The notes beneath the pieces are model-generated. The model was not told the origin of the DNA. It made no database searches and saw only the letters and a program-made list of their open reading frames with translations. DNA of 64,000 nt from Escherichia phage ESCO13. Made by a program: the position numbers and the translations under genes. The stretch lies in the sequence record NC_047770.1. One strand, written 5' to 3'. Positions within the stretch are counted from its first letter, which is position 1. Each line of letters opens with the position of its first letter. Below are positions 31,295 to 59,706 of this stretch, piece by piece.

Positions 31295-31326
31295 TCCTCC
31301 TTATAAATGGCTTCCCTGCCACATTA

Positions 31327-32085: not shown

Positions 32086-32102
32086 AGTAGCACTCCTTTT
32101 AG

Positions 32103-32120: not shown

Positions 32121-32122
32121 TA

Positions 32123-32623: not shown

Positions 32624-32630
32624 TTACTTC

Positions 32631-32780: not shown

Positions 32781-32785
32781 AATTG

Positions 32786-33046: not shown

Positions 33047-33888
33047 TACCTCTCCTTATTAAGTAATACTGCTAAAGACTGTTCAATACCTTTATTTAAA
33101 TCTGATTTTGTAAGATAGTGACTGGTTACTAGTTGTGACTTCACCGGACGTGCTGCTGGAGCATTATAGGTTGAAGCTGATACCGCCGATATCTTAACAG
33201 GTTCTGGCATCTGTGTCAAGATCTTTTCCGCAAACTCCGCCCAAGAAATAAGATGGCTTCCTGCAAAATGGTAAGTCTTAACAGACCTTGACCAACCTGT
33301 TTTTAATACTTCAAAAATAGCTTCTGCTAAATCTGGAGCATATGTTGGACAAGAGAACTGATCAGCAACAATAATAAAATCACGTTGTCCATCATTATAG
33401 CGAGACAACATAGTTTTTAGAAAGTTATTTCCAAATTCGCTATATACCGAGGCTGTTCGAATAATATATGCATTTGGGTTAACTCCTCGCACCATTTTTT
33501 CACCAAGTTCTTTCGTATACCCATAATTGTTTATTGGGTTAGGTGTAGTGTCTTCAAAAATAGGATGAGAATAATTAAAAATATAGTCTGTGGAAATATG
33601 CACAAAATCAATTTTAAGTTTGCTGCACACTGCCGCAATATTTGCAGGGCCATAAGCATTAACAGCCAAAGCAGTAGCAAAATCTTGTTCGGCTTTATCT
33701 ACAGCCGTATAAGCGGCGCAATTAATAACACCATCTACATAATCTTCAACAATAGCGTTTCGCACAGCTTCAAAATTTGTAATATCTACACGTTCTTTAG
33801 GATAAATTAAAGATACATTTGCAGGGGCAACTTTACGTAAAGCTTGTCCCAGTTGTCCATTACCACCCAATACCAGATATGTTAGCAT
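33046..33888 (-). CDS. rmlD: dTDP-4-dehydrorhamnose reductase
   Basis: [17 protein letters not shown] Rossmann N-terminus; last gene of rml order. Confidence 0.65.
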   Translation of the reverse strand: MLTYLVLGGNGQLGQALRKVAPANVSLIYPKERVDITNFEAVRNAIVEDYVDGVINCAAYTAVDKAEQDFATALAVNAYGPANIAAVCSKLKIDFVHISTDYIFNYSHPIFEDTTPNPINNYGYTKELGEKMVRGVNPNAYIIRTASVYSEFGNNFLKTMLSRYNDGQRDFIIVADQFSCPTYAPDLAEAIFEVLKTGWSRSVKTYHFAGSHLISWAEFAEKILTQMPEPVKISAVSASTYNAPAARPVKSQLVTSHYLTKSDLNKGIEQSLAVLLNKER

Positions 33889-34448
33889 ACACCCTCGCTA
33901 CGTAACTGTTGAAAAGATTTAGCCATTGCATCTTTTGTTGATAGGATAGGTTTAAAACCTTCATCAAAAATCATATCGAAGCCCCAATCGATCCCTATAT
34001 CAGGATCATCCCAACGTAAACTTTCTTCACTAGAAGGGTCGTATGGAGTTGTGCATTTGTATTCAAAGATAGCATCCATACTCAAAACTATAAAACCATG
34101 TGCCAAACCAGGTGGAAGCCAAAACTGCGTATGGTGTCGTGCACGAAGAACAACACCGTCCCAAGCACCGTAAGTAGGACTATCTTTACGTAAGTCTACA
34201 GCGAAATCCAATACTTCACCACTTACACAACGAACAAGCTTACCTTGCGGATTATTTGTTTGAAAGTGCATTCCTCGCAAAACACCGAAGTTTGATTTAG
34301 ACATGTTATCTTGAACGAAAGTTTGTCTACCAATGATATCTTCGTATTTTTGTTCATTATATGTTTCTAAAAAGAAACCACGGTCGTCTTTATAAACGTC
34401 TGGTTTGATAATTACCGCACCTTCAATTTTTGTTTTTTCTACTTTCAT
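33882..34448 (-). CDS. rmlC: dTDP-4-dehydrorhamnose 3,5-epimerase
   Basis: Start moved to ATG 34448 (ATGA overlap with rmlA stop); cupin-like RmlC sequence. Confidence 0.65.
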
Positions 34449-35323
34449 TTTCCCTCCGCTAATTTGAGTAGGTATTGCCCGTACTCTGTTTTCTTCAGTG
34501 AGTTTCCATGGTAGACCAAAGTCTCTAAAGAAATCCACCCTTTTTTGAAAGCAATTTCTTCCAGGCACGCAATCTTCAATCCTTGACAGTTCTCAATAGT
34601 CTGCACGAATTGACCAGCTTCCATCAGACTGGCGTGTGTTCCTGTGTCAAGCCAAGTAAATCCTCGTCCGAGAACTTCCACTTGTAACTTCCTGTCTTCG
34701 AGGTAGCTGCGATTGATATCAGTGATCTCCAGTTCTCCACGCGCGGAAGGGGTTACTTCTAATGCACGTTGAATAACAGAGTTATCATAGAAATACAAAC
34801 CTGTGACAGCATAATCTGATTTAGGATTTTCAGGTTTCTCTTCAATAGAAATAACTTGACGATTACTCCCAAATTCAACCACACCGAATCGTTCAGGATC
34901 TTTCACCAAACACCCGAAGATACAAGCTCCGCCCCAAACATCTACCATCTCACTAGCGTCAATCAGTAGTTTACCAAAGCTTTGTCCGAAGAATAGGTTG
35001 TCACCTAAAATAAGAGCAACAGAGTCTTCTCCGATAAAATCTTTACCGATGATGAAAGCGTCCGCAAGACCTCGTGGCTTGGATTGGATTGCGTAAGTGA
35101 GTTTTATCCCAAACATAGACCCATCTCCAAGAAGATACTCAAAGTCTTCCTGATCGCCTGGTGTGGTGATGATTAAGATATCCTTAATGTCAGCCAACAT
35201 CAATACCGATAAAGGGTAGTAGATCATGGGTTTGTCATACACAGGGAGCAATTGCTTGCTCACACTGCGTGTTACCGGATGAAGGCGGGTTCCACTTCCT
35301 CCCGCCAAAATAATACCTTTCAT
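34445..35323 (-). CDS. rmlA: glucose-1-phosphate thymidylyltransferase
   Basis: [20 protein letters not shown] aaggagg. Confidence 0.8.
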
Positions 35324-35331
35324 AACCCTCC

Positions 35332-36324
35332 TTAAATCTTCTCACTCCACCATTGAGGGTTGTTTAAGTACCATTCAATCGTTGAGTAGAGATCTTGTTC
35401 AAATGTAGAGTTTGCACTCCAACCCAGTTCAGACTCTATTTTAGAAGGATTGATTTCATAACGCAAGTCATGTCCTTTACGATCTTCAACAAAAGTTATC
35501 AAGTTGGAAGAAGGGTAGGTTCCTGCTTCTGGATGTACAGCATCCATGTAGTCACAAACCATATAGATGATCTCCATATTGGTTTTGGGATTACGTGTTC
35601 CAACATTATACGTTTGACCTGGTTCTCCACCTGTTGCCACTTGAAGAATAGCTCGCGCATGATCCTCAACAAAAAGCCAGTCTCGCACCTGATCGCCTTT
35701 ACCATACACCGGAATCTCTTTATTCGTCAAGATACTTGTGATGATTTTTGGGATCAGCTTTTCTGGATGTTGATAAGGTCCAAAGTTATTGGAGCAGTTG
35801 GTTATCACAACAGGTAAACCGTAGGTACGGTACCAAGCTTTCACAAGATGGTCAGATGCTGCCTTAGACGCACTGTACGGGCTTGAAGGGGCATAAGCTG
35901 TCTCTTCGGTAAAGGGAACGCCAGAGTCTGCCATATCGCCGTACACTTCGTCTGTGGAGACATGTACGAACATCTTAAGTTTATTTTTTGGGAGGAGCCT
36001 TGCAGCTTCCAATAAATTGTATGTACCAATAATATTGGAGTCGATGAAAACTCGTGGATTCTTGATAGAATTATCCACATGACTCTCTGCCGCTAAGTGA
36101 ATGATGAAATCGGGATTGCACTCTACTACTAAACTTTTGACCTGGGTTTCGTTTGCCAAATCTGTTATGCTCAGTTTAACGTGAGTGATATCGCCTACAT
36201 TCTCAATATCTGCTGCATAGCCCATCTTATCAACGACAAAAACTTCGTTATTGGGATCTTGACAAAGAGAGCGCACCACGGCACTCCCAATAAAACCAAG
36301 ACCACCTGTTACCAGATAGCGCAT
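35332..36324 (-). CDS. rmlB: dTDP-glucose 4,6-dehydratase
   Basis: [22 protein letters not shown] (YxxxK); SD aaggagaa. Confidence 0.8.
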
Positions 36325-36333
36325 CAGTTCTCC

Positions 36334-36660
36334 TTACCAGACATGTTGAGAAATAATAGTTTCCGTTTTAATGTTATATTTTTCAAGTAGCTTTGCATAG
36401 GCTTCTTTTGCATTCTCATTCAATTGCTCAAGATCTACAGCTATGCTTCCTTCTCCGCCTTCTAAATCAAGGCCATATATGCAATAAGACTCATCCGCAT
36501 CGTAGAAAGGAGAGATGCGGCTTAAGTCAAGACCTTCTTGTAAGAACCAGTTAAAATCTCCGTCAAATTCTTCTTCAATTCTAGGATCTTCTCCTACAGC
36601 CTCTTCCCACTTATTTAAAGGTGCACCCTGTAACATACGCCATTCGATATCAATACCCAT
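36334..36660 (-). CDS. hypothetical acidic protein
   Basis: SD ggaggag upstream. Confidence 0.45.
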   Translation of the reverse strand: MGIDIEWRMLQGAPLNKWEEAVGEDPRIEEEFDGDFNWFLQEGLDLSRISPFYDADESYCIYGLDLEGGEGSIAVDLEQLNENAKEAYAKLLEKYNIKTETIISQHVW

Positions 36661-36814
36661 TTTTCATCTCCTCCTCTTCTTGAGCAGCTTTAATAATTGC
36701 TTCATAAATATCGTAAGCAATGCCTCCACAACATCTAGCTTCGAAAGCTATTGCTTCTGCAATGTGATCTGTTAATTCTCGTGGAATGCGAACATACTCT
36801 TTTTCACTCTCCAT
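36650..36814 (-). CDS. small hypothetical protein (54 aa, not in track)
   Basis: ATG after SD ggaggtag. Confidence 0.3.
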   Translation of the reverse strand: MESEKEYVRIPRELTDHIAEAIAFEARCCGGIAYDIYEAIIKAAQEEEEMKNGY

Positions 36815-36956
36815 CTTCTACCTCCAACCCTTCTTTTTCAAAGACTACTACTCGTCCCTCACCATGACAATTCAGGCAAGGAAATGTTACCATAATTTCC
36901 ACTTCCATCTGTCCCGTCCCACCGCACACAGGACAAAAAATAAGTTTTTCAGCCAC
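36804..36956 (-). CDS. small zinc-ribbon protein (50 aa, GTG start, not in track)
   Basis: GTG after SD aaggagg; CPVC...CLNC. Confidence 0.3.
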   Translation of the reverse strand: MAEKLIFCPVCGGTGQMEVEIMVTFPCLNCHGEGRVVVFEKEGLEVEDGE

Positions 36957-37165
36957 TATTCCTCCTTAATTATTTCAAATTTGGCAACACCATTTACAAT
37001 AATATGACCACAAGACATAACTCCTAGCCAAGGATCGCCGTTTTTCTTCAGGCGTTTACCGAATACATCACAAAAACCATTCTTCATTTCAGAGGCTTCA
37101 TAAGAAGCCCCTTTATCAAAAACGTCTTTGAATGTGTCGATTATACCAACACATTTCAAAATCAT
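36956..37165 (-). CDS. hypothetical protein
   Basis: SD gaggag; ATGA overlap with nrdB stop. Confidence 0.4.
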   Translation of the reverse strand: MILKCVGIIDTFKDVFDKGASYEASEMKNGFCDVFGKRLKKNGDPWLGVMSCGHIIVNGVAKFEIIKEE

Positions 37166-38250
37166 TCGAAGTCAAGCTCCTCATCATCAGAGAGATCTTT
37201 GTTAGCTGAATTCAATTTGTAGTTAGTTAACTGAATCTCTTGGGCTGCTGACTGAATCAAATCAGGATTCAACCATTTTTCCATCCAAGCTAAAGGGCTA
37301 TGTTTAGGTGCTTTAAACTTGGCTTTCATTTTCAATCGACGATAAATAGGAGCAGCATTGAAATAAACCCACTGTTTAGACAATTCGGCGTTAAGACCTA
37401 CAATAAAACGACCTTCACTAAACAGGTAGTCACACCACTGTTCCTCTTGTTCAACAACAGTGTCGAGGATCAAAGTCAACTCTTCAATATTGTCTTCGTA
37501 AATTTTACGCCAAATTGGGTCATGCATCAATGCATCAATTACAGCATAATCCATCTTAACATGCAAGATTTCATCTAGCATAATTTTCTGGATCAGTTTA
37601 CAAGCCCCAACAAACAGTTGTTGTTCTGCCATAGCAAAAGTAGCAGAGAAGGAAGATATAAACTGAATACCTTCTAATCCAATCAGGGCTACCATCCCTT
37701 TAAGAATCAGCAGTCGAAGTTCATCGTTAGCTTCAATCAATCCTAGAGCATACTTATGACCAGCTTCTTCCAACTGACCCATGATATCAGCAATGATACC
37801 CATACGATTGAAAATTTTATCATTAATCATAATCTGATTGATGACTTCAATTGGATCTGGAGTACATTGACGGATTATTTCAGAATACGTTAACGCATGG
37901 AGAACTTCCATTTCACTCTGCTTCATCATCATAGCACAGGCTTCATTGTTACTCAAAAATGGAGAGAACAAAGTGATGATTGATTTTGCAAGAGAATCAT
38001 TTTCCCATTGGAACGATAAGTTTTTAATCATAACATCATAGTTGTTTTTAGAACAAGCTACGAAATCTTTACGTGTCTGATCCAGATTGACTTCATTCTC
38101 ATCCCAATCTTGTGCTTTTTGAAGTTTGTAGAGTTTGTGCATTTCTGGATAAGTTACGTTAACAGAATCAAAGATCCCTAATTGCTCCCCCAAAAATACT
38201 GGATATTTTCCTGTTTTGTAAACTTCATTGTGTAAATTAATTGCTGCCAT
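37162..38250 (-). CDS. nrdB: ribonucleotide reductase class Ia small subunit
   Basis: Ferritin-like motifs EVLHALTY and GLEGIQFISSF; acidic C-terminal tail DDEELDFE; SD gtggagga. Confidence 0.8.
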   Translation of the reverse strand: MAAINLHNEVYKTGKYPVFLGEQLGIFDSVNVTYPEMHKLYKLQKAQDWDENEVNLDQTRKDFVACSKNNYDVMIKNLSFQWENDSLAKSIITLFSPFLSNNEACAMMMKQSEMEVLHALTYSEIIRQCTPDPIEVINQIMINDKIFNRMGIIADIMGQLEEAGHKYALGLIEANDELRLLILKGMVALIGLEGIQFISSFSATFAMAEQQLFVGACKLIQKIMLDEILHVKMDYAVIDALMHDPIWRKIYEDNIEELTLILDTVVEQEEQWCDYLFSEGRFIVGLNAELSKQWVYFNAAPIYRRLKMKAKFKAPKHSPLAWMEKWLNPDLIQSAAQEIQLTNYKLNSANKDLSDDEELDFE

Positions 38251-38575
38251 TTAAGTCCTCCACTATATAACACATGCTTTTAAGTTCTGCAATATCTTCT
38301 TCGCTTGCTCCGTCTATCTTATAAACACCTTCTAGACCATCCCATACACTTTTAGTTAAGATTATTGTTATGTTATTTTCTGATCTTGCTCTACCTAATG
38401 CAAAAGCCGTTGCACTAGGATCATCAGAAGCCCATATTTGTATATCCCTAAGTTGGTAGGCAGCAATATAATTGCAACACCAATGTAAAGTAAAATCTTT
38501 GGAATCTACCAAGATAACGGTTCCATCACGTTTATGGATAGGTGATGCGCCTGGTAACACTATTAATGTTTCCAT
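38237..38575 (-). CDS. hypothetical protein
   Basis: SD aaggaga upstream. Confidence 0.45.
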   Translation of the reverse strand: METLIVLPGASPIHKRDGTVILVDSKDFTLHWCCNYIAAYQLRDIQIWASDDPSATAFALGRARSENNITIILTKSVWDGLEGVYKIDGASEEDIAELKSMCYIVEDLNGSN

Positions 38576-38594
38576 ATTTTCTCCTTAGAAAATA

Positions 38595-38612
38595 AAGGGG
38601 CCGAAGCCCCTT
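38595..38612 (-). terminator. intergenic hairpin AAGGGGCCGAAGCCCCTT (copy 3 of 3)
   Basis: Directly after nrdA stop; U-rich tail on minus transcript. Confidence 0.5.
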
Positions 38613-38616
38613 GATA

Positions 38617-40863
38617 TCACATAGAGCAGCCTTCACAACCAGATTCTTTTAAGTTATCTTCTTGTGCTAAAGAGTCTGCTGATTTTGTTCTACTGTTAAG
38701 GTAATACAATGACTTGCCACCCAGTCTAGCAAAATTCAGAATAAACTGCATCTCAGCTTTCACTGATAAACGTCCACCTACCAATTTAGAATAATCTAGC
38801 CAAGAATCACAAGAAATTCCTTGGTCCGTAAACTTGGTAAAGATACCATACATTTCTGCAAGATCTTTAGCCGGAGTGTCCCAGGCAGACTGGTAGAACA
38901 TTTTCAGTTTTTCATAATCTGGAACAATAAATAATACGCTACCTTTCTGACTTTGTTTATACATAATAGTATCACGAACAGGGTACAGAGAGTTAGTAGT
39001 ATTGCTTACCAAACTGCTGGACTCATTAGGTGCAATAGCAGCCAAGACACTGTTACGGATACCACCTTGTTCAATGATTTCAGCACGTAAGCCTTCCCAG
39101 TCCATTTTAAGATCAAAATTACCGATACTATCTACTGTTTTAGCATAAGTGTCAATTGGTAGCCAACCTTGAGGCCATTTGGTCTTATCGATCCATTCTG
39201 CATTACCTTTTTCCTTAGCCAGACGCAGAGAGGCTTTTGCCAACCAAAAGTAATGACGTTCTGCAAGTTCATGCATTAATTTTTTAGCATAAGCATCTGA
39301 ATAATTTACAAAATTACTTGCCAAATAATGCGCTAAGTTTGTAATACCTACACCAATAGATCTACGTGCTTTAGCAGTTATTTCGTTATGTTTAAATGGA
39401 TAATCCATTGTTTCAATAACGTTGTCAATTGTCAATACAGTGTAGTATGCAACATCCTCATATTCTTCAGGTAAGACACGACCAGCGACAATAGAAGATA
39501 AGAAGCATAAAGCCAATTCTTGATCTTCTGTATTCTCACCAGTAAAGAGATCCGGCATATTGTGGAAAGCTTTAGTTGGTAAGAAGATCTCTTGACACAG
39601 GTTTGATTGATACACCGTATCCAGGAAAGGTGTATGGTTGTTAACGTTGTCAGCAAAGAACATGTAAATACGTCCTGTTTCTGCACGTTGAACAATAATC
39701 TCTGTCAGAAGATCACGAGCCTTAACAAATTTTTTCTTAATGCGACGACGGCTTACTTTGTCATAAACTGCATCAAACTCTTCTTCACTTTTATACAAGG
39801 CTTCATAAAGTTCAGGAGCATCATCACAACTAACTAACATCCAGTCTTCGTTTTTTGCTGCTCGACGCAAGAACGAACGGTTAACAACAATAGAATAATC
39901 TAGTTTGTCTACTCGTTTATCTATAGGTGTTGTTGGATTCTTCAGTCGAATCAGATCGTCGAAGTCTGGTTCAAGTATGGTAAAGGTAACTGTAGCACTA
40001 CCTCCACGGCTTGCTTGCTTCGAAGCTCCAACACTATCTTCCATCCATTTCAGATATGGAAGAAGACCACCATGAATAATACGATTATTCTTAACACCTT
40101 GACCTGTGGCACGAGTTTGAAGATTAACACCAATACCTGCGTTATTCAACGTATACTCATGAGCTAAGTAATTAGCAATGGCTAAAGACTCTGCCGTATC
40201 GTCTGCACGGAACAAACAACAAGACGCACTTCCTTTGATTGGAGTTCGTAGAGTTGTCAGATATGGCGATGGCAGATTAATCTTAAGATCGCTGACATAA
40301 GTATAAAGTTTTTTAATATCTTCTATACGGCGTTCTTTTGGTTGGATCTCCATAACCTTCATTGCGATACCAATGAAAAGGAACTGTGGAGACTCATGCA
40401 CCACATCGTTTACTGCATCTCGAATAAGATATTTATCCACCATTTGACGTAAAACAGAATAACCATAAGTTAGATTTTTATTATGCTTTACAATCTTACC
40501 GATTTCTTTGATCTCTTCATCAGTATAATCCATTTTAGCCCAATGACCACGTTCTACCATATCATGATAAAAGGTATTCAGTGAAGGGATACTGTGGTAT
40601 CCCCCATGAGCCTGTTTGTAAATCATACCCAGAAGAAGTCTTCCTGCCATATCACTGTAAGCTTGTGTTTTCTTGTCAATACACGCTGCAATCATTGCTT
40701 TATGCAGATCACGTGTAGACACACCGTCATAACACCGCTTCACAGCTTCTAATTCAATTTCAGACCAGTTTAGTTTACCTGCTGCAAATTCAGACCACTT
40801 GCGAAGTTTTTCTGGATTAAACTCCTCTGTCTTACCGTTAGATTTAGTTACAAAACGAATCAA
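38617..40863 (-). CDS. nrdA: ribonucleotide reductase class Ia large subunit
   Basis: 748 aa; N-terminal ATP-cone-like region; C-terminal Cys pair CEGC; adjacent nrdB; SD gggaggag. Confidence 0.85.
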   Translation of the reverse strand: MIRFVTKSNGKTEEFNPEKLRKWSEFAAGKLNWSEIELEAVKRCYDGVSTRDLHKAMIAACIDKKTQAYSDMAGRLLLGMIYKQAHGGYHSIPSLNTFYHDMVERGHWAKMDYTDEEIKEIGKIVKHNKNLTYGYSVLRQMVDKYLIRDAVNDVVHESPQFLFIGIAMKVMEIQPKERRIEDIKKLYTYVSDLKINLPSPYLTTLRTPIKGSASCCLFRADDTAESLAIANYLAHEYTLNNAGIGVNLQTRATGQGVKNNRIIHGGLLPYLKWMEDSVGASKQASRGGSATVTFTILEPDFDDLIRLKNPTTPIDKRVDKLDYSIVVNRSFLRRAAKNEDWMLVSCDDAPELYEALYKSEEEFDAVYDKVSRRRIKKKFVKARDLLTEIIVQRAETGRIYMFFADNVNNHTPFLDTVYQSNLCQEIFLPTKAFHNMPDLFTGENTEDQELALCFLSSIVAGRVLPEEYEDVAYYTVLTIDNVIETMDYPFKHNEITAKARRSIGVGITNLAHYLASNFVNYSDAYAKKLMHELAERHYFWLAKASLRLAKEKGNAEWIDKTKWPQGWLPIDTYAKTVDSIGNFDLKMDWEGLRAEIIEQGGIRNSVLAAIAPNESSSLVSNTTNSLYPVRDTIMYKQSQKGSVLFIVPDYEKLKMFYQSAWDTPAKDLAEMYGIFTKFTDQGISCDSWLDYSKLVGGRLSVKAEMQFILNFARLGGKSLYYLNSRTKSADSLAQEDNLKESGCEGCSM

Positions 40864-51035: not shown

Positions 51036-51440
51036 TTATTGAAGTTTAAGTGAACCACGAAGACGTTTCTCTTGCTGATCACGGATATATTGTGGAACCT
51101 CGTGAATTGAATCATTACCGTGCCTATTTTCAACAATTAAAGAGATAACTTGATAACCAAACTCTTCAGCAAGAGCTAGATAAGGTTTAAGTTCTTTCTC
51201 TGTGGTTGAAGTATTAGAAACAATAATCTTGTTAAGATTAGATGCCATAGCATCACGAACAATACCCTGACACCATGCGTGTGCTTTACCTACATTTTCT
51301 GGCTTCCAATCGTAAACACCACTCTCTGTGTAATGATATTGATCTGCCTCACAGATAGGCCAATAACCTTCAGAAATAATTTCTGCTACTGTAGATTTAC
51401 CAGCACCTGAAACGCCACGTAAAATGATAAGTTGTTTCAT
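51036..51440 (-). CDS. Pnk-like P-loop 5'-OH polynucleotide kinase
   Basis: LIILRGVSGAGKSTVAE (Walker A) and IIVSNTSTTEKELKPY resemble the T4 Pnk kinase domain (from memory); SD ggagga. Confidence 0.55.
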   Translation of the reverse strand: MKQLIILRGVSGAGKSTVAEIISEGYWPICEADQYHYTESGVYDWKPENVGKAHAWCQGIVRDAMASNLNKIIVSNTSTTEKELKPYLALAEEFGYQVISLIVENRHGNDSIHEVPQYIRDQQEKRLRGSLKLQ

Positions 51441-52373
51441 TTATCCTCCAAAAAAGTTTTCGATTTTTTCACGTCGCTCTTGCTGATTTAAAGCAGCCCA
51501 TTGAGTCTTCGTAAAATTATTTCGAATCCATTCTAACAAAGCGTAATATTCTTCGTCAACCATTTGTTTGGCATTTTTTGGATTATCCCAAATCAGATCC
51601 CACTTTTTATCTCCACCGCGCATAAGAAACTTCTTAGTAAGATAGTGTGGTGATTTAATTTTTAAAAGTAAGTTGAACGGATAGTTTGTTTCACGAACTA
51701 CAAACCCTTCGTGTTTACAATGTTTAGACATTTCAACAACATCTGAAAACTTAACCATTGGATGAACTTCAGGACGCTTAAATTTGGTGACAGAAGCAAT
51801 TCCATCAAGAGCACCTTCAGGTAACATAAAACTTGTCCCATCAGGATTTTGAATTCTGGCACCAATTAAGTATGCACCTGGTTCTTCTTCGACAATATGC
51901 GGATCAGAAGGATCACAGATTTCAAAAAGGAAAGTTGCTTTTGCACTCTCTGTCCATTTGATGAAATGTTCTATGTCATCACACTCTGAAACAATACGAT
52001 TCTTTGCAATACTTGCAAAATCTGATTCAAGGCTTCCTGTTGTCGATACAATAAGTTGACCTTTATATACACCTACAGAGGCCATAAAACCATTTACTTT
52101 ACGAACCACATCTACAAGTTCATCCAATGGTAGATCTGTGCCATTCTCAAAACGATTAAAAATCTTAGTGAAAGGCCAAATAACAACATTGTCATCAGCA
52201 TCAACAACGATTCCGCGACATTCTAGAAGACGAGAATCAATGCTCCATAAGTTATCCCAGAAAACTTTGTTCTTATACTTAAGAACAGATAGACCAGAAT
52301 ACTCTCCTTCTTTATATGTTTTCTTATGAACTAAACCTTTTTCAACCAAATCGTCGCAATTAAATTTATTCAC
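51441..52373 (-). CDS. RNA ligase-like nucleotidyltransferase (Rnl2-like)
   Basis: KVNG (motif I), HEGFVVRE (IV), LLLKIKSP (V); SD aaggagag. Confidence 0.6.
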   Translation of the reverse strand: MNKFNCDDLVEKGLVHKKTYKEGEYSGLSVLKYKNKVFWDNLWSIDSRLLECRGIVVDADDNVVIWPFTKIFNRFENGTDLPLDELVDVVRKVNGFMASVGVYKGQLIVSTTGSLESDFASIAKNRIVSECDDIEHFIKWTESAKATFLFEICDPSDPHIVEEEPGAYLIGARIQNPDGTSFMLPEGALDGIASVTKFKRPEVHPMVKFSDVVEMSKHCKHEGFVVRETNYPFNLLLKIKSPHYLTKKFLMRGGDKKWDLIWDNPKNAKQMVDEEYYALLEWIRNNFTKTQWAALNQQERREKIENFFGG

Positions 52374-52374
52374 A

Positions 52375-52926
52375 TTACTCTCCTTTGATTATTTTGTGAT
52401 GGTCTACAGTCACGATATCTCGTTTACTCATCATAGAAATTATCTCATCAAAATGCAAGATTTTTCCGTGTGCATCCCAACCCACATCTAACATTTTACC
52501 ATAAGCTTCATCAGGGAAAGATCCGTGGGAATGCCCGTGTAGCATGATTGATCCACGACCTTGTTTATTCCAGGAGGCCATAGGGTAATGACTTAAGACG
52601 AAGAACAGCTTCTGATATTTCACTTCGTCATAATACACCACTTCACCATACTCTGCAAGCACTTCTCGGTGTTTGCTGTAGTCATGGTTCCCAACACAGT
52701 AGGTGATATCTCCTTGGAGACGAGAAGCAATTTTACGGGTATCTTCTTCAGTTCCGAAACAGAAGTCGCCCAAATGCCACATCTTAACACCAGGAGTAGT
52801 AGCACATTTGTTCCATGCTTCGATCAAGGCTTCTGTCATGTGGTCCATATCTTCCCACGGACGATATTCAGGAGCAAACTCTCGAATACGTTTATGCATA
52901 AAATGCAAATCGCTTGTAATAAACAT
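52375..52926 (-). CDS. calcineurin-like metallophosphoesterase (end-healing phosphatase candidate)
   Basis: SDLHF (DxH), LGDF (GD), GNHD, HGHSH; SD gaggga. Confidence 0.65.
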   Translation of the reverse strand: MFITSDLHFMHKRIREFAPEYRPWEDMDHMTEALIEAWNKCATTPGVKMWHLGDFCFGTEEDTRKIASRLQGDITYCVGNHDYSKHREVLAEYGEVVYYDEVKYQKLFFVLSHYPMASWNKQGRGSIMLHGHSHGSFPDEAYGKMLDVGWDAHGKILHFDEIISMMSKRDIVTVDHHKIIKGE

Positions 52927-56781: not shown

Positions 56782-57033
56782 ATGCCGATCACTCCCCATT
56801 TGGGGTTCGAAGGATATATGCAAAATAGTTTTTATTTTAGGTGCCGTGCTTGTAATAGGCATTTGACAAACCACTCCAGACGTGATAAAAATGGAGTCAT
56901 CAAGGAATCAGACCTCTGTTCTATTTGCACAGGTTTGGCTTTTGATGATAGTCCCGAAAGGGTTTATCAGCATCAATGTATAACAGACGTTCTCGTGTCA
57001 AACTTGGTAGAGGACGAACAACTAACAGATTAG
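56782..57033 (+). CDS. hypothetical Cys-rich protein
   Basis: SD gaggag; CRACN...CSIC. Confidence 0.45.
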   Translation: MPITPHLGFEGYMQNSFYFRCRACNRHLTNHSRRDKNGVIKESDLCSICTGLAFDDSPERVYQHQCITDVLVSNLVEDEQLTD

Positions 57034-57041
57034 GAGGAACA

Positions 57042-57290
57042 ATGTCTCTATTAGAAAAACACGTGTTTGAAGATGGTAACGGCAATGCAGTTTTTCTTTT
57101 CCATCCAGAAAAATACACATCTGAAAACAATGGTACAACTTCTATTGTAATCACTAAAGATGTTAAAGTTATTGATTTCTTGGCTCTGATGCGAGAGATG
57201 GATCTTGAAATTAACACTTTTAACGCAGAAGCTTTGGTTGTTGCTCTTCTGGAAAAGAAAGATAGTGAAGAAGTAGCAGAATATGCTTAA
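57042..57290 (+). CDS. hypothetical protein
   Basis: Start moved to ATG 57042 after SD taggagg. Confidence 0.45.
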   Translation: MSLLEKHVFEDGNGNAVFLFHPEKYTSENNGTTSIVITKDVKVIDFLALMREMDLEINTFNAEALVVALLEKKDSEEVAEYA

Positions 57291-57297: not shown

Positions 57298-57327
57298 TTG
57301 ACAAACGTATCCTTCATATGTTAGGAT
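57298..57327 (+). promoter_or_regulatory. possible promoter ahead of the tRNA cluster
   Basis: TTGACA-18-TAGGAT (weak -10). Confidence 0.3.
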
Positions 57328-57536
57328 ACGTTCATCAAGTGTGGTAACAGGGTCGTTGACTTTTGTTAAGAGGGGCTTGCACTGCGGTAGTGTTAGAGAC
57401 TACTTCTTCAGAGGTTAGCTACCAAAGAGGAAAAGGAATAGTCTCGGCTCAAGAACTTTTACGCTGAAAGTTGGGCTTGGTCTTAGAGAATGTAGCGGTT
57501 CTCTACAATCGTCAGCGTCTCTGTTACCACATTTAT

Positions 57537-57608
57537 GGCCCTGTAGCTCAATGGGAGAGCTGTCGGCTCATAACCGATAGGTAGCTGGATCGAAACCAGC
57601 CAGGGCCA
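57537..57608 (+). tRNA. tRNA-Met or Ile2 (anticodon CAT)
   Basis: Hand-folded cloverleaf; acceptor ggccctg/cagggcc; loop cuCAUaa; CCA encoded; resembles E. coli tRNA-Ile2 (from memory). Confidence 0.7.
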
Positions 57609-57613
57609 CCAAA

Positions 57614-57685
57614 GTCTTTATGGTGTAATGGATAGCACAGGAGTCTTCTAAACTCTTAGTCAAGGTTCGATTCCTTGTAAAGACA
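57614..57685 (+). tRNA. tRNA-Arg (anticodon TCT)
   Basis: Acceptor gtcttta/taaagac; loop cuUCUaa; T-arm caagg-ttcgatt-ccttg; CCA encoded. Confidence 0.7.
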
Positions 57686-57884
57686 CCAGAACATTTTAAC
57701 ATGAATTAGCTCAAGTGATTTGAACCCACTACTGATCATGGTGGCAGAGAATGAGGCAAGTATGTCAGACATTATAAACAAAGGCCACGGTTATATTAGA
57801 AGACATAAATGCTCGAAGAGCACCGTTCGTGGAGAACGGGGGTTGGTGGAGTCACCATTCATGGTAAAATGTTTTAAAAAACTA

Positions 57885-57914
57885 TTGACAACAAACATTA
57901 TTTTATGTTAGATT
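57885..57914 (+). promoter_or_regulatory. sigma70-like promoter inside the tRNA cluster
   Basis: TTGACA-18-TAGATT. Confidence 0.4.
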
Positions 57915-57922
57915 ATAAGTAT

Positions 57923-58010
57923 GGAAGGGCAAATCGATGTGGCGACGAAAACGGTCTTGAAAACCGCCGAGCTTGAAAGAGCCTTGGGAGTTCGACTCTC
58001 CCTCCTTCCG
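57923..58010 (+). tRNA. tRNA-Ser (anticodon TGA)
   Basis: Long variable arm; loop cuUGAaa; T-arm gggag-ttcgact-ctccc; CCA encoded. Confidence 0.6.
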
Positions 58011-58018
58011 CCAGATTA

Positions 58019-58101
58019 GGTAGATTGGTGAAATGGTAGCCACGACAGTTTGCTAAACTGTAGTCGGAAACGGCGTGTAGGTTCGAGTCCTACATCTACC
58101 G
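58019..58101 (+). tRNA. tRNA-Ser (anticodon GCT)
   Basis: Acceptor ggtagat/atctacc; loop uuGCUaa; long variable arm; CCA encoded. Confidence 0.6.
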
Positions 58102-58234
58102 CCAAGTTCTTTTTAATGTAGCTTACTTTAGCAGAGTAAATCTTCGGCAAGTGGCGGTAACCACTTTACCGATACCTCATAGTTAGTGGTGTGAACACTG
58201 GCTATTTTAAAAAGAATTTAAATATTAGTATTTA

Positions 58235-58319
58235 GGTGAGTTAATTCCGTAGGGGTAGCGGGGCAGACTGTAAATCTGTTATCATTGCGATTCGGGTGGT
58301 TCGACTCCATCACTCACCA
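58235..58319 (+). tRNA. tRNA-Tyr (anticodon GTA)
   Basis: Acceptor ggtgagt/actcacc; loop cuGUAaa; long variable arm; CCA encoded. Confidence 0.65.
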
Positions 58320-58328
58320 CCAAATTAA

Positions 58329-58411
58329 GATGAGTTGGCTGAATGGTTTAAGCGGCGGACTGTTAATCCGTGTTCGAAAGAACAATATAGGTTCGAATCC
58401 TATACTCATCG
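58329..58411 (+). tRNA. tRNA-Asn (anticodon GTT) with unusually long variable arm
   Basis: Anticodon arm gcgga-cuGUUaa-tccgt matches E. coli tRNA-Asn (from memory); extra gttc-gaaa-gaac hairpin in variable region; CCA encoded. Confidence 0.55.
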
Positions 58412-58505
58412 CCAGAATTATGGACTTGTAGAGTTAAGGTAAACCCCCCAGTCGCCAATAGGCTTCTGGAATTGCAGGTATCGAATCCTGCCGAGTCCCA
58501 GCATT

Positions 58506-58577
58506 GCTCCTATAGTATAATGGCTATTACAACGGTTTTGTAATCCGTGGATCTCTGTTCGATTCAGTGTGGGAGCA
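58506..58577 (+). tRNA. tRNA-Thr (anticodon TGT)
   Basis: Acceptor gctccta/tgggagc; loop uuUGUaa; one mismatch each in anticodon and T stems; CCA encoded. Confidence 0.5.
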
Positions 58578-58854
58578 CCAACACAACATTAAGAGCACTG
58601 TGATTGATCGTCGTATCCTGTGCACAAGGTCTGCTCGAAAGACAGTGTTCTTAGTATTGTGTTGATCACAAAAAGAGTCACCCGAAACTTGACCGGAGTA
58701 GGGTTGGATGGGGCAAAATGAGAAGCGGCTCTCCCATCGACAGCAACGAAGAATAATATTTGACTTTGGTTTTGTATTATTTTAAGTTAGCTTACCGAAC
58801 GTAGGGCTAGTCACCCAACGGGATACTCGTCACTGTCCCAATCAATAAAAGTCT

Positions 58855-58883
58855 TGACAACAAATAGTAAAATGTAGTATAGT
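58855..58883 (+). promoter_or_regulatory. sigma70-like promoter upstream of tRNA-Gly
   Basis: TTGACA-17-TATAGT. Confidence 0.5.
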
Positions 58884-58894
58884 AAATATATATG

Positions 58895-58965
58895 GCGTTC
58901 TTGGTGTAGCGGTAGCATTCCGTCCTTCCAAGTCGGCGGCACGAGTTCGATCCTCGTAGAACGCT
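58895..58965 (+). tRNA. tRNA-Gly (anticodon TCC)
   Basis: Acceptor gcgttct/agaacgc; loop cuUCCaa; T-arm acgag-ttcgatc-ctcgt; CCA encoded. Confidence 0.65.
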
Positions 58966-59066
58966 CCAAATTATTTAATAAAGGGTTGCCAGAAAACTTT
59001 CTCTTTTACTCATGGTTTTCTCCTTCTCTCACACTTCTTCTGGTTGCCCTTCATTAAATGATTTAT

Positions 59067-59139
59067 TGGTTTGTAGTGTAGTCCGGTAGCACACGACACT
59101 TTGACTGTCGTAGGTTTGGTTCAAATCCAGACAGACCAG
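59067..59139 (+). tRNA. tRNA-Gln (anticodon TTG)
   Basis: U1-A72 and discriminator G as in E. coli tRNA-Gln (from memory); loop cuUUGac; CCA encoded. Confidence 0.65.
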
Positions 59140-59235
59140 CCATATAACAAAGGTGAGTCACTACCTTAAGTGTGAAGTTAAAAACGAGGAGCCGCCGAAC
59201 ACTTTCTTTTGCGGTGTACCTTTAGAATGTTATCA

Positions 59236-59309
59236 CGGGACGTAGCACAGCTTGGTAGTGCGCTCGCTTTGGGAGCGAGAGGTCGAGTGTTCGAATCACT
59301 CCGTCCCGA
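59236..59309 (+). tRNA. tRNA-Pro (anticodon TGG)
   Basis: C1-G72 start as in bacterial tRNA-Pro; loop uuUGGga; T-arm gagtg-ttcgaat-cactc; CCA encoded. Confidence 0.7.
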
Positions 59310-59318
59310 CCAATTAAA

Positions 59319-59389
59319 TGTTTCGTAGTTCAATGGTAGAACCCACGACTGATAATCGTGAGACACAAGTTCGATTCTTGTCGAAACAA
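59319..59389 (+). tRNA. tRNA-Ile (anticodon GAT)
   Basis: Anticodon arm cacga-cuGAUaa-tcgtg; T-arm acaag-ttcgatt-cttgt; CCA encoded. Confidence 0.65.
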
Positions 59390-59470
59390 CCAGTTTCCCG
59401 TTAGACTTACAGGATAAGAGTTCCACAGCTTATTGTGATGCTGGTTCGAATCCAGCACGGGATACATAAT

Positions 59471-59546
59471 AGCGGGATAGAGGAGTCTGGTCGTCCTCGC
59501 CAGTTTCATATGCTGGAGATCATCGGTTCAAATCCGATTCCCGCCT
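59471..59546 (+). tRNA. tRNA-Met (anticodon CAT), A1-C72 mismatch
   Basis: D-stem gagg/cctc; anticodon arm ccagt-uuCAUau-gctgg; T-arm atcgg-ttcaaat-ccgat; CCA encoded. Confidence 0.6.
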
Positions 59547-59664
59547 CCAAATATCGCTTGCCAGCGGTATCTTTGAAGACCTTGCCTGGTTCCTTCTAAG
59601 ATGGAGGGGTGCGACTCCTTAACGCACAATTATAATAAAGCATTTCAACTTAACAGTATTTACT

Positions 59665-59688
59665 AGCCTCCTTATTGGAGGCTTTTTG
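59665..59688 (+). terminator. intrinsic terminator after the tRNA cluster
   Basis: agcctcc-ttatt-ggaggct then TTTT. Confidence 0.65.
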
Positions 59689-59706
59689 CTATCTATTGAA
59701 TAAAAC

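What the first reader, a model, noticed from the sequence alone, without database searches (positions are those of the whole stretch)
57537..59546. tRNA cluster with 12 canonical genes, two degenerate tRNA-like elements and a long-variable-arm tRNA-Asn
Hand folding gives Met/Ile2(CAT), Arg(TCT), Ser(TGA), Ser(GCT), Tyr(GTA), Asn(GTT), Thr(TGT), Gly(TCC), Gln(TTG), Pro(TGG), Ile(GAT) and Met(CAT), most with encoded CCA. Element 58422-58499 has acceptor and T-arm-like helices but an 8-nt T-loop and no anticodon arm. Element 59395-59464 has a T-arm and acceptor but a truncated anticodon hairpin. The Asn tRNA carries an extra hairpin in the variable region.
Basis: seen in the sequence. Interest (0 to 1): 0.5.

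Follow-up and report, generated by a model that had tools for sequence, protein, structure and literature searches.

The report
Phage tRNA array with tRNA mimics
This is the tRNA gene array of a phAPEC8-like coliphage: twelve working tRNAs, an asparagine tRNA with an extra hairpin that turns up almost only in phages, and two anticodon-less tRNA look-alikes that are conserved RNA families rather than decayed genes, one of them matching the 'RNA3' of phage T5, whose function is unknown.

Summary
The window is 100% identical to Escherichia phage vB_EcoM-Ro121c4YLVW (Phapecoctavirus). All 12 encode CCA.

The interpretation needs correcting on the two "degenerate" elements. They are not decaying pseudogenes.

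- **TLE1 (58422-58499)** is a homolog of T5 "rna3, putative tRNA-like RNA". It lies 2-7 nt after tRNA-Asn in nearly all T5-like and phAPEC8-like carriers. Of its 18 base pairs, 11 show compensatory changes.
- **TLE2 (59395-59464)** belongs to a second family, shared with five Vequintavirinae and the siphovirus phiEB49. Seven pairs show compensatory changes.

Both have a short-looped hairpin where the anticodon arm should be. Both score just under the Rfam tRNA threshold.

The long-arm tRNA-Asn is one of at least 22 distinct phage sequences with a GAAA-capped mini-helix in the variable region. The same pattern is essentially absent from 185,579 bacterial and archaeal genomes.

The array has three sigma-70-like promoter matches, one terminator-like hairpin, and structured spacer RNAs. 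The function of the mimics is unknown. I infer tRNA mimicry with an accessory, host-dependent role. Most parts are already annotated somewhere, so interest is moderate.

The parts
57298..57327 (+). Promoter-like site P1 (TTGACA, 18 nt, TAGGAT, with an extended -10 TG)
   Evidence: Consensus scan, 10 of 12 matches. The total number of promoter-like sites in the region does not exceed the shuffled expectation, so this is a consensus match, not shown function. It lies just after the stop codon of the upstream ORF 56976-57290.
57337..57534 (+). Spacer RNA S0: about 200 nt, closed by a 16-bp terminal stem that ends 2 nt before the first tRNA
   Evidence: MFE -76.9 kcal/mol, z = -5.3, 0 of 200 shuffles fold as well. 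No homolog was found outside Phapecoctavirus.
57537..57611 (+). tRNA with anticodon CAT, typed Ile2 (lysidine type) by tRNAscan-SE
   Evidence: ARAGORN; Rfam 64.5 bits; annotated tRNA-Ile-CAT in ASO2A; encoded CCA.
57614..57688 (+). tRNA-Arg(TCT)
   Evidence: (66.3 bits); encoded CCA.
57689..57874 (+). Spacer RNA S1: about 186 nt, closed by a long terminal stem
   Evidence: z = -3.8. A homolog at about 70% identity sits in the tRNA cluster of the Demerecviridae Salmonella phage R7 (L068 2501-2685). It has conserved blocks and a compensatory stem change, CCAC/GTGG to CACAG/CTGTG.
57885..57914 (+). Promoter-like site P2 (TTGACA, 18 nt, TAGATT, with TG)
   Evidence: 10 of 12 matches. Consensus match only; the site count does not exceed the shuffled expectation.
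57923..58013 (+). tRNA-Ser(TGA), class II, with an aberrant D-arm
   Evidence: Missed by ARAGORN and by the Rfam tRNA model. Weak tRNA-Sec match of 35.7 bits. tRNAscan-SE calls tRNA-Ser-TGA in ASO2A. Sequence and CCA.
58019..58104 (+). tRNA-Ser(GCT), class II, with a 4-bp GAAA-capped extra arm
   Evidence: (56 bits).
58106..58217 (+). Spacer RNA S2, closed by an 11-bp terminal stem
   Evidence: z = -3.2. An inner stem shows compensatory changes in phage nieznany, AAGTGG/CCACTT to AGATGG/CCATCT.
58235..58322 (+). tRNA-Tyr(GTA), class II
   Evidence: Rfam 39 bits. Not called by ARAGORN. tRNAscan-SE call in ASO2A. phAPEC8 carries a different Tyr allele at this position.
58329..58414 (+). tRNA-Asn(GTT) with an extra arm: 15-nt variable region GTTC-GAAA-GAAC + AAT, G73, CCA
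   Evidence: (62.1 bits). At least 22 distinct phage sequences share this build. Only one true hit appeared in bacterial and archaeal genome contigs, on a phage-like contig.
58422..58499 (+). TLE1: anticodon-less tRNA-like RNA, homolog of T5 rna3 (RNA3)
   Evidence: Homologs in T5 and DT57C are annotated rna3. Alignment A1: 95.5% of cells paired, 11 of 18 pairs with double changes, 0 of 500 shuffles reach the observed score. Model R1 scores it 70.3 bits. The Rfam tRNA model gives 28.3 bits, below the cutoff of 29. No encoded CCA in this phage.
58506..58580 (+). tRNA-Thr(TGT)
   Evidence: 55.6 bits.
58581..58662 (+). Spacer hairpin S3a: 82 nt with a long, nearly perfect stem directly after tRNA-Thr
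58854..58883 (+). Promoter-like site P3 (TTGACA, 18 nt, TATAGT)
   Evidence: 11 of 12 matches. Consensus match only; the site count does not exceed the shuffled expectation.
58895..58968 (+). tRNA-Gly(TCC)
   Evidence: 56.1 bits.
58969..59063 (+). Spacer RNA S4: long stem presenting a conserved pyrimidine-rich loop, CTCATGGTTTTCTCCTT
   Evidence: z = -5.2. The stem covaries between the window and Nernie while the loop is conserved.
59067..59142 (+). tRNA-Gln(TTG)
   Evidence: 54.9 bits.
59236..59312 (+). tRNA-Pro(TGG)
   Evidence: 67.1 bits. The window carries a different allele from four other Phapecoctavirus genomes.
59319..59392 (+). tRNA-Ile(GAT)
   Evidence: 72.2 bits.
59395..59464 (+). 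TLE2: anticodon-less tRNA-like RNA of a second family
   Evidence: Homologs occur in Vequintavirinae A7_1 and LTH01 and in Drexlerviridae phiEB49, where it is annotated tRNA-Val. Alignment A2: 96.4% of cells paired, 7 pairs with double changes, 0 of 500 shuffles. The Rfam tRNA model gives 24.6 bits, below 29. No encoded CCA here, but CCA is present in the other lineages.
59471..59549 (+). tRNA-Met(CAT): 79 nt, 5-bp D-stem, A1·C72 mismatch
   Evidence: 50 bits. Flagged tRNA-Pseudo-CAT in phAPEC8.
59665..59690 (+). Intrinsic-terminator-like hairpin that closes the array (AGCCTCC-TTATT-GGAGGCT followed by TTTTGCTATC)
   Evidence: ASO2A annotates a rho-independent terminator at the homologous position.

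Best explanation
The region is the tRNA array of a virulent phAPEC8-like myovirus. The layout suggests transcription on the + strand from three sigma-70-like promoters, ending at one intrinsic terminator.

It encodes four kinds of product.

(i) Twelve decoding tRNAs. Most read A/U-ending codons that the 38.6%-GC phage uses 1.6-3.4 times more often than E. coli does. They probably also back up host tRNAs during infection.

(ii) A tRNA-Asn(GUU) that keeps the Asn anticodon arm and G73 but carries a GAAA-capped mini-helix in its variable region. This build is found almost only in phages.

(iii) Two non-decoding tRNA-like RNAs. TLE1 is the homolog of T5 RNA3. TLE2 belongs to a second family. Each keeps an acceptor stem, a T-arm and a D-region, but has a short-looped hairpin instead of an anticodon arm.

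(iv) Structured spacer RNAs closed by long terminal stems.

Shown here: the gene identities, the structures, the cross-family conservation with compensatory changes, and the packing of the mimics at tRNA-like spacing (2-7 nt) inside the array.

Inferred: the mimics are cut out by RNase P and 3' trimming like their neighbours and accumulate as stable 70-80-nt RNAs. Because they cannot read codons, they act as tRNA mimics that engage a tRNA-binding factor. My leading guess is a host tRNA-directed defence or toxin, or a tRNA maturation enzyme. The role would be accessory and host-dependent.

Also inferred: the extra arm of tRNA-Asn changes recognition by something other than AsnRS, for example a tRNA-targeting nuclease, while Asn charging is retained.
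For: - **Identity of the phage.** 100% identical to Ro121c4YLVW.
- **tRNAs.**. All 12 encode CCA.
- **Expression signals.** Promoter-like and terminator-like sites, all on the + strand.
- **Codon use.** ATA 2.1x, AGA 2.6x, ACA 3.4x, GGA 2.2x, CCA 1.7x, TAT 1.9x and AAT 1.65x the E. coli values, which are recalled from memory.
- **TLE1 homology.** T5 rna3 is annotated 'putative tRNA-like RNA' directly after tRNA-Asn, and likewise in DT57C. The same Asn+TLE pair occurs in Nernie and in many T5-likes.
- **TLE1 structure.** 18 pairs, 95.5% paired against 26-42% when the partners are slid, 11 pairs with double changes, 0 of 500 shuffles.
- **TLE2 structure.** 23 pairs, 96.4% paired, 7 with double changes, 0 of 500 shuffles. 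It is one of only two tRNA-type genes called or annotated in the 1.07-kb stretch examined of the 47-kb phage phiEB49, and there it has an encoded CCA.
- **tRNA ancestry.** Both align end to end to Rfam tRNA just under threshold, failing only at the anticodon arm.
- **Long-arm Asn.** At least 22 distinct sequences, with nine different covarying stems closed by GAAA, nearly all with G73. Three pattern hits in 185,579 genomes, of which only one is real and sits on a phage-like contig.
- **Asn identity rule.** Asn identity is the anticodon plus G73 (PMC9976931).
- **tRNA conflict context.** A kinase, Rnl1 ligase and phosphoesterase module lies 4.6 kb upstream. T5 tRNA-Lys neutralises PARIS (PMC11464382).
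- **Accessory role.** T5Mos, with a deletion of 30661-38625, lacks rna3 and tRNA-Asn and is still viable.
Against: - No expression, processing or binding data exist for TLE1 or TLE2 in this phage. T5 RNA3 itself is annotated only as 'putative'.
- In Phapecoctavirus neither mimic has an encoded CCA, although all 12 real tRNAs do. That could mean relaxed function here.
- Some relatives lack TLE1 (L037, L043, L046). L006 keeps TLE1 without Asn.
- An anticodon-less RNA cannot be a substrate decoy for anticodon nucleases. It could only compete for binding to the tRNA body.
- Variation within the genus is too low to test for purifying selection.
- The count of promoter-like matches in the region does not exceed the shuffled expectation (5 found against a mean of 5.6).
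- The E. coli codon frequencies come from memory.
Confidence: 0.6

Rival explanations
1. TLE1 and TLE2 are decaying tRNA pseudogenes with no function of their own, carried along inside the array.
For: Both score below the Rfam tRNA threshold. Both lack an anticodon loop and, in this phage, an encoded CCA. TLE2 has a U1·U72 mismatch. Some relatives have lost TLE1. T5 survives deletion of rna3.
Against: All helices are kept by compensatory changes across unrelated phage families: 11 of 18 pairs in TLE1 and 7 of 23 in TLE2. An 18-nt single-stranded motif and the 8-nt T-loop are nearly invariant between T5-likes and phAPEC8-likes. Other lineages encode CCA. TLE2 is retained in a 47-kb genome, where it is one of two tRNA-type genes in the stretch examined. 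Random decay would break stems rather than exchange pairs.
Confidence: 0.12
2. The mimics are processing or insulation elements. Their tRNA shape recruits RNase P and 3' exonucleases so that neighbouring tRNAs (Asn and Thr; Ile and Met) are released correctly from the polycistronic precursor. The excised RNA itself does nothing.
For: They sit 2-7 nt from their neighbours, exactly like real tRNAs. TLE1 follows tRNA-Asn in nearly all carriers across families. tRNA-like 3'-end processing signals are an established mechanism (mascRNA, mitochondrial punctuation; own knowledge).
Against: Adjacent real tRNAs already supply such cleavage sites. In L046 Asn and Thr are only 6 nt apart with no TLE1 between them. 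A pure processing signal would not need a nearly invariant 18-nt D-region motif or an odd 8-nt T-loop held constant across families. phiEB49 carries TLE2 after a single tRNA.
Confidence: 0.2
3. The long-arm tRNA-Asn(GUU) is a dual-identity or mischarging tRNA. With a Ser-like D-arm, a GAAA-capped extra arm and G73, it is charged at least partly by SerRS and inserts Ser at AAY codons.
For: It has the same length and layout as the phage's own tRNA-Ser(GCT), and the two anticodons differ by one base, GCT against GTT. SerRS ignores the anticodon and relies on the long variable arm plus G73 (PMC9976931).
Against: The 18-nt stretch GGCGGACTGTTAATCCGT, spanning G26 and the anticodon stem-loop, matches E. 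coli tRNA-Asn as I recall it. All Asn determinants (G34, U35, U36, G73) are present. The extra stem is only 2-4 bp, shorter than in tRNA-Ser. Many family members have the U1-A72, C2-G71 Asn-type acceptor stem, and some have an Asn-type D-arm (L029). The window tRNA lacks the G2-C71 and A3-U70 pairs of Ser. It is the only phage Asn tRNA in many of these genomes.
Confidence: 0.07
4. TLE1 and TLE2 are decoding tRNAs with unconventional anticodon loops, for example quadruplet or frameshift readers.
For: ARAGORN forces the phiEB49 copy into tRNA-Val(AAC) with a possible 7-nt loop TTAACAA. T5 RNA3 could open into an 8-nt loop.
Against: Loop size and sequence differ in every lineage, from 3 to 6 nt: AAUA, AUUU and CAACCA in TLE1; CUUA, UAU, UCU and AAC in TLE2. 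There is no conserved U33 or purine 37, and no conserved anticodon.
Confidence: 0.03

Closest known systems
Bacteriophage T5 rna3 ('RNA3, putative tRNA-like RNA'; AY543070 33877-33949; DT57C rna3)
   Same: This is a homolog of TLE1. It shares the motif TGTAGAGTTAAG(G)TAAACC, the 8-nt T-loop YATCRAAT, three covarying helices, and a position 2-7 nt downstream of tRNA-Asn.
   Different: The T5 copy encodes ACCA and has a 6-bp hairpin with a 6-nt loop. The window copy lacks CCA and has a longer hairpin with an internal loop and an AAUA tetraloop. No function is known for either. The presence of this RNA in Stephanstirmvirinae is not annotated in any record I saw.
T5 RNA1 and RNA2 ('tRNA-like stable RNA with unknown functions'), T5 RNAI, RNAIII, RNAIV and RNA2H, and T4 rnaC (species 1 RNA)
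   Same: These are small stable RNAs embedded in phage tRNA arrays and closed by terminal stems that abut tRNAs. They are analogous to TLE2 and to spacers S0-S4.
   Different: blastn finds no sequence similarity to the window spacers or to TLE2. Homology is therefore not shown.
Class II (long variable arm) bacterial tRNAs: Ser, Leu, Tyr
   Same: The window tRNA-Asn has a 15-nt variable region forming a stem-loop, a 3-bp D-stem with a large D-loop, and the same 86-nt layout as the phage tRNA-Ser(GCT).
   Different: The anticodon is GUU and the anticodon arm is of the Asn type. The extra stem is only 2-4 bp. In bacteria, class II architecture is normally restricted to Ser, Leu, Tyr and Sec (own knowledge).
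Phage tRNAs that counter tRNA-targeting defences (T5 tRNA-Lys against PARIS; T5 tRNA-Tyr against retron systems)
   Same: These are phage-encoded tRNA variants in the same kind of array whose altered structure escapes a host nuclease (PMC11464382; bioRxiv 10.1101/2023.03.15.532788, abstract). They are the functional precedent for the altered Asn and for a defence-related role of the mimics.
   Different: Those are decoding tRNAs with small substitutions. No nuclease that targets tRNA-Asn, or that is blocked by an extra arm, has been tied to this family. The mimics cannot decode at all.
Viral and cellular tRNA-like RNAs that are processed but not used in decoding (MHV68 vtRNAs, mascRNA)
   Same: They share the acceptor/T-arm mimicry that recruits RNase P, RNase Z and the CCA-adding enzyme without aminoacylation-dependent decoding (own knowledge).
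   Different: Those are eukaryotic systems and are unrelated in sequence. Rfam mascRNA matched only a real tRNA here, and weakly.

Membership tests
Canonical tRNA (Rfam RF00005) | Score at or above the gathering threshold of 29 bits | tested here: met
   Eleven of the 12 genes score 39-72 bits. Ser(TGA) is the exception: it is missed by RF00005 and gives only 35.7 bits to tRNA-Sec.
Canonical tRNA (Rfam RF00005) | The same threshold, applied to TLE1 and TLE2 | tested here: not met
   TLE1 scores 28.3 bits and TLE2 24.6 bits, both below 29. ARAGORN calls neither.
Canonical tRNA (Rfam RF00005) | A 5-bp anticodon stem with a 7-nt loop (U33, anticodon, purine 37), applied to TLE1 and TLE2 | tested here: not met
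   The loops are 3-6 nt and differ in each lineage.
T5 RNA3 family (for TLE1) | Conserved 5' single-stranded motif TGTAGAGTTAAG(G)TAAACC and 8-nt T-loop YATCRAAT | tested here: met
   These columns are invariant in alignment A1 across the window, Nernie and T5-likes. Model R1 gives 70.3 bits for the window and 96.7 bits for T5.
T5 RNA3 family (for TLE1) | Three helices (acceptor, central hairpin, T-arm) supported by covariation | tested here: met
   95.5% of cells paired; 11 of 18 pairs with changes on both sides; 0 of 500 shuffles; slid controls 26-42%.
T5 RNA3 family (for TLE1) | Position immediately downstream of tRNA-Asn | tested here: met
   The spacer is 7 nt in the window, 4 nt in Nernie and 2 nt in T5. 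L006 is an exception.
T5 RNA3 family (for TLE1) | Accumulates as a stable RNA in infected cells | not testable with these tools
   The T5 and DT57C annotations say only 'putative'.
Class II tRNA | Variable region longer than 10 nt that forms a stem-loop | tested here: met
   The variable region is 15 nt, GTTC-GAAA-GAAC + AAT. The stem covaries across at least 22 family members.
Class II tRNA | Isotype Ser, Leu, Tyr or Sec | tested here: not met
   The anticodon is GTT (Asn).
tRNA-Asn identity set (E. coli AsnRS) | G34, U35, U36 and discriminator G73 | tested here: met
   The sequence has CTGTTAA and G73. The rule comes from PMC9976931. Actual charging cannot be tested here.
tRNA-Ser identity set (E. 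coli SerRS) | Long variable arm, G73, and the G2-C71 / A3-U70 acceptor pairs | tested here: inconclusive
   G73 and an extra arm are present. The arm is short (4 bp), and the acceptor stem has A2-U71 and U3-A70.
Decaying tRNA pseudogene | Helices disrupted by uncompensated substitutions, and no conservation beyond close relatives | tested here: not met
   plus cross-family homologs.

The most novel reading that the evidence does not exclude
TLE1 (the RNA3 family) and TLE2 are dedicated anti-defence tRNA mimics. They would be stable, anticodon-less RNAs that bind and neutralise a host tRNA-directed immune nuclease or toxin, or hijack a tRNA maturation factor. The GAAA-capped extra arm of the phage tRNA-Asn would be a structural shield that makes this Q-family tRNA resistant to such an enzyme. 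Together they would form a portable Asn+RNA3 counter-defence module exchanged between T5-like and phAPEC8-like phages.
Probability: 0.2. Interest if true: 0.75.

Novelty: new member of a known kind. Interest (0 to 1): 0.45.

Why it matters
Small stable RNAs in the tRNA regions of T4 and T5 have gone without a function since they were first annotated there.

This analysis shows that one of them, RNA3, is not specific to T5. It is a structurally constrained RNA shared with an unrelated myovirus lineage. A second anticodon-less tRNA mimic has a similar cross-family spread.

The analysis also shows that an Asn tRNA with an extra arm is a recurrent build found almost only in phages.

These results give concrete, small and genetically tractable targets of 70-86 nt. 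They can be tested for a part in the conflict over tRNAs that PARIS, retrons and anticodon nucleases have recently exposed. They also point to routine mis-annotation of these elements as tRNA-Val, tRNA-Pseudo, 'hypothetical protein', or nothing at all.

Tried and rejected
- **Literature.** Six full-text searches found nothing on T5 RNA3, on tRNA-like RNAs of phAPEC8-like phages, or on a long-arm tRNA-Asn. Absence from this library is not proof of novelty, because the 1980s T5 papers are not held.
- **Wider search for TLE1.** Model R1, searched over 34 loci (350 kb of phage tRNA regions), found no members beyond T5-likes and Stephanstirmvirinae. The weaker hits are ordinary tRNAs; for example, L056 981-1055 is tRNA-Met.
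- **IMG/VR pattern scans.** The TLE1 scan gave 14 loci, three of them chance matches inside coding sequence. The TLE2 scan gave 4 loci, two of them chance. The single metagenome scan added only two Phapecoctavirus-like copies of TLE2.
- **Host copies.** TLE1 and TLE2 have no match in 5,426 complete E. coli genomes, so no host copy or ancestor was identified.
- **T5 stable RNAs.** RNAI, RNAIII, RNAIV, RNA1, RNA2, RNA2H and DT57C RNAX show no sequence similarity to the window spacers or to TLE2.
- **Asn alignment.** The MAFFT alignment of the long-arm Asn family (A5) puts the extra arm out of register, so I did not run the pair-count tool on it. I parsed the stems directly instead.
- **Selection within the genus.** Comparing five Phapecoctavirus genomes gave too few substitutions to test for selection on the mimics. 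It mainly exposed swapped Tyr and Pro alleles.
- **Discarded ideas.** I considered quadruplet-decoding tRNAs and small ORFs as explanations for the mimics and dropped both. The covariation pattern, and the absence of any conserved reading frame or anticodon, argue against them.

Full report
**Source and context.** The 2.6-kb region is 100% identical to Escherichia phage vB_EcoM-Ro121c4YLVW. It is 95-100% identical to about 65 other Phapecoctavirus (Stephanstirmvirinae) genomes. It lies between small ORFs of unknown function and the lysis and terminase genes.

**Checking the tRNA calls.** ARAGORN finds 10 tRNAs. The Rfam tRNA model finds 11, adding Tyr at 39 bits. Ser(TGA) at 57923-58013 is missed by both and gives only a sub-threshold tRNA-Sec match. 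All 12 end in an encoded CCA, whereas the two odd elements do not. The observation therefore stands. "Canonical" is generous for three genes: Ser(TGA) has an aberrant D-arm, Tyr scores marginally, and the last Met(CAT) is flagged tRNA-Pseudo-CAT in phAPEC8.

**Organisation of the array.** Three sigma-70-like promoter matches lie on the + strand at 57298, 57885 and 58854. Two of them carry an extended -10 TG. A terminator-like hairpin lies at 59665-59683. The total count of promoter-like sites is not above the shuffled expectation, so these remain consensus matches.

**Codon use.** ORFs of the window (38.6% GC) use ATA, AGA, ACA, GGA, CCA, TAT, AAT and AGT 1.6-3.4 times more often than E. coli does. 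The E. coli values are from memory. This fits the conventional codon-supply role for the tRNAs.

**RNA repair module.** About 4.6 kb upstream, on the other strand, sit three adjacent genes:
- an AAA_33 kinase-like protein;
- an Rnl1-type RNA ligase (PF09511, E = 6e-15);
- a calcineurin-like phosphoesterase.

I read this as a heal-and-seal RNA repair set of the kind T4 uses against the anticodon nuclease PrrC (the T4 parallel is own knowledge). If that reading is right, the phage invests in the conflict over tRNAs.

**TLE1 (58422-58499).** In the Justusliebigvirus-like phage Nernie and in many T5-like Demerecviridae, the gene after tRNA-Asn is followed within 2-7 nt by an element with the same anatomy. 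The T5 record annotates it as "rna3, RNA3, putative tRNA-like RNA". DT57C annotates it as "putative stable RNA with unknown functions".

An alignment of 13 distinct copies shows three features:
- an almost invariant single-stranded stretch, TGTAGAGTTAAG(G)TAAACC;
- an 8-nt T-loop, YATCRAAT;
- three helices whose sequences differ but still pair.

On the pair counts, 95.5% of cells are paired, compared with 26-42% when partners are slid. Eleven of 18 pairs change on both sides, and 0 of 500 shuffles reach the observed score. The central hairpin has a different loop in each lineage (AAUA, AUUU, CAACCA), so there is no anticodon.

With lax filters, the Rfam tRNA model aligns TLE1 end to end at 28.3 bits against a threshold of 29. 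It accepts a D-arm with one mismatch and fails only at the anticodon arm. TLE1 is thus a tRNA derivative kept for its shape, not for decoding.

T5 copies encode ACCA. The window copy does not.

The T5Mos deletion (30661-38625) removes rna3 and tRNA-Asn, and that phage still grows on laboratory E. coli. Any function is therefore accessory.

**TLE2 (59395-59464).** This is a different family. Homologs at 77-84% identity occur in five Vequintavirinae (A7_1, A73, W70, UPEC06, LTH01) and in the 47-kb siphovirus phiEB49. In the stretch of phiEB49 examined it is one of two tRNA-type genes and is annotated tRNA-Val.

The family shares:
- the D-region TAGGCTTACAGGATAAGATTCC, which includes a 4-bp hairpin with a GG-containing loop;
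- a normal TTCGAAT T-loop;
- a 5-7-bp hairpin with a 3-4-nt loop at the anticodon-arm position.

The non-Phapecoctavirus copies encode CCA. With only six distinct sequences, 96.4% of cells pair, seven pairs change on both sides, and 0 of 500 shuffles reach the observed score. The Rfam tRNA model gives 24.6 bits. Nearly every GenBank record leaves the element unannotated. One calls it tRNA-Pseudo-CAT.

**The long-arm tRNA-Asn.** The gene has, in order:
- G26 and an anticodon stem-loop that together read GGCGGACTGTTAATCCGT, an 18-nt stretch matching E. coli tRNA-Asn as I recall it;
- discriminator G73;
- a 3-bp D-stem with a large loop;
- a 15-nt variable region, GTTC-GAAA-GAAC + AAT.

A pattern scan of IMG/VR found 44 loci. 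From these and related loci I extracted at least 22 distinct Asn(GTT) genes of 83-87 nt, each with a 2-4-bp stem closed by GAAA. Nine different complementary stem sequences occur. The source contigs include T5-like phages, Stephanstirmvirinae, a 171-kb contig, contigs of about 147 kb, contigs of 291-350 kb and environmental contigs.

The same pattern hit only three places in one genome for each of 185,579 bacterial and archaeal species. Two are not tRNAs with an extra arm. The third is a tRNA-rich, phage-like contig binned into a MAG. T4-like Kha5h and T5 itself carry ordinary class I Asn genes.

Asn identity in E. coli rests on the anticodon and G73 (PMC9976931), so charging with Asn is the expected outcome. 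The resemblance to the phage's own tRNA-Ser(GCT) is close: equal length, a GAAA-capped arm, G73, and one anticodon base of difference. That leaves a small chance of SerRS cross-charging. The pattern fixed CGAAAG, so the true family may be wider than what I found.

**Spacers.** Most spacers longer than 90 nt fold into a structure closed by a long terminal stem. S5 and S6 show no significant structure.

| Spacer | z-score |
|---|---|
| S0 | -5.3 |
| S1 | -3.8 |
| S2 | -3.2 |
| S3a | not scored separately (82-nt hairpin) |
| S4 | -5.2 |
| S5 | 0.0 |
| S6 | -1.2 |

Three of them have comparative support:
- S1 has a homolog at about 70% identity, with compensatory changes, in the tRNA cluster of a Demerecviridae Salmonella phage.
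- S2 and S4 show compensatory stem changes between relatives.
- S4 presents a conserved loop, CTCATGGTTTTCTCCTT.

They resemble the T5 "stable RNAs with unknown functions" and T4 rnaC in layout, but not in sequence.

**Mechanism.**

*Shown:* gene identities, structures, covariation, cross-family conservation, tRNA-like packing inside one transcription unit, and dispensability of the T5 homolog.

*Inferred:*
- RNase P and 3' trimming release the mimics as stable RNAs.
- The mimics act by tRNA mimicry on a tRNA-binding factor.
- The Asn extra arm alters recognition by something other than AsnRS.

The precedent is T5 tRNA-Lys, which escapes the PARIS nuclease (PMC11464382).

*Rivals:* pure pseudogenes (disfavoured by the covariation), processing or insulation elements (possible, but they do not explain the invariant motifs), and unconventional decoders (disfavoured by the variable loops).

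**Verdict.** This is an ordinary phage tRNA array in kind, and most of its genes are already annotated. It also contains three under-described features: a homolog of T5 RNA3, a second family of tRNA mimics, and a phage-restricted extra-arm Asn. These are real, conserved and experimentally tractable.

Noticed in passing
window 51036-52926, minus strand: Three adjacent genes: an AAA_33 P-loop kinase-like protein (51036-51440), an Rnl1-type RNA ligase (PF09511; 51441-52373) and a calcineurin-like phosphoesterase (52375-52926). I read this as a heal-and-seal RNA (tRNA) repair module, 4.6 kb from the tRNA array.
   Followed up: partly
window 57337-57534, 57689-57874, 58106-58217, 58581-58662: Spacer RNAs S0, S1, S2 and S3a are each closed by a long terminal stem that abuts a tRNA (z = -5.3, -3.8 and -3.2 for S0-S2). 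S1 has a homolog at about 70% identity, with compensatory changes, in Demerecviridae Salmonella phage R7 (L068 2501-2685). There is no Rfam match.
   Followed up: partly
window 58969-59063 (loop 59008-59026): In spacer S4 the stem covaries with Nernie while the loop CTCATGGTTTTCTCCTT is conserved. Its reverse complement, AAGGAGAAAACCATGAG, reads as a perfect Shine-Dalgarno sequence plus ATG on the minus strand, opening mini-ORFs of 12 aa here and 8 aa in Nernie. On the + strand the loop contains an anti-SD-like CUCCUU.
   Followed up: no
window 58105-58322 and 59236-59312: Among five Phapecoctavirus genomes, tRNA-Tyr with its upstream spacer and tRNA-Pro exist as two very different alleles (30-43% variable sites). 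The rest of the array differs by 0-4%. This looks like cassette swapping of individual tRNA genes.
   Followed up: partly
window 58444-58449: The window has a run of six C in TLE1 where four other Phapecoctavirus genomes and L002 have five. This is either a homopolymer length polymorphism or a sequencing difference.
   Followed up: no
L020 (DT57C) 5918-5999: Upstream of rna3, DT57C carries what looks like a fusion of a tRNA-Tyr 5' part (anticodon GTA) to the 3' end of the long-arm tRNA-Asn. ARAGORN does not call it and the record does not annotate it.
   Followed up: no
L003 (Nernie) 1087-1165 and 3204-3349: Nernie has a 'tRNA-OTHER' with anticodon TCT, apparently no D-arm, and a long variable region. 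A further T-arm/CCA-ending element lies between Met and Ile. The rV5-like phage slur12 has a 'tRNA-???(atcc)'. Odd tRNA-like genes seem common in these arrays.
   Followed up: no
L054 (349.7-kb IMG/VR contig) 2343-3055: One jumbo-phage contig carries three Asn(GTT) genes: a 73-nt class I form, an 83-nt form with the GAAA mini-arm, and a 94-nt form with a longer extra arm.
   Followed up: no
phage records matched: Records labelled Campylobacter phage B15/A148/A132 and Listeria phage LM 4-11-1 are about 96-100% identical to E. coli phage tRNA regions. The host labels are probably wrong, or the samples were contaminated.
   Followed up: no
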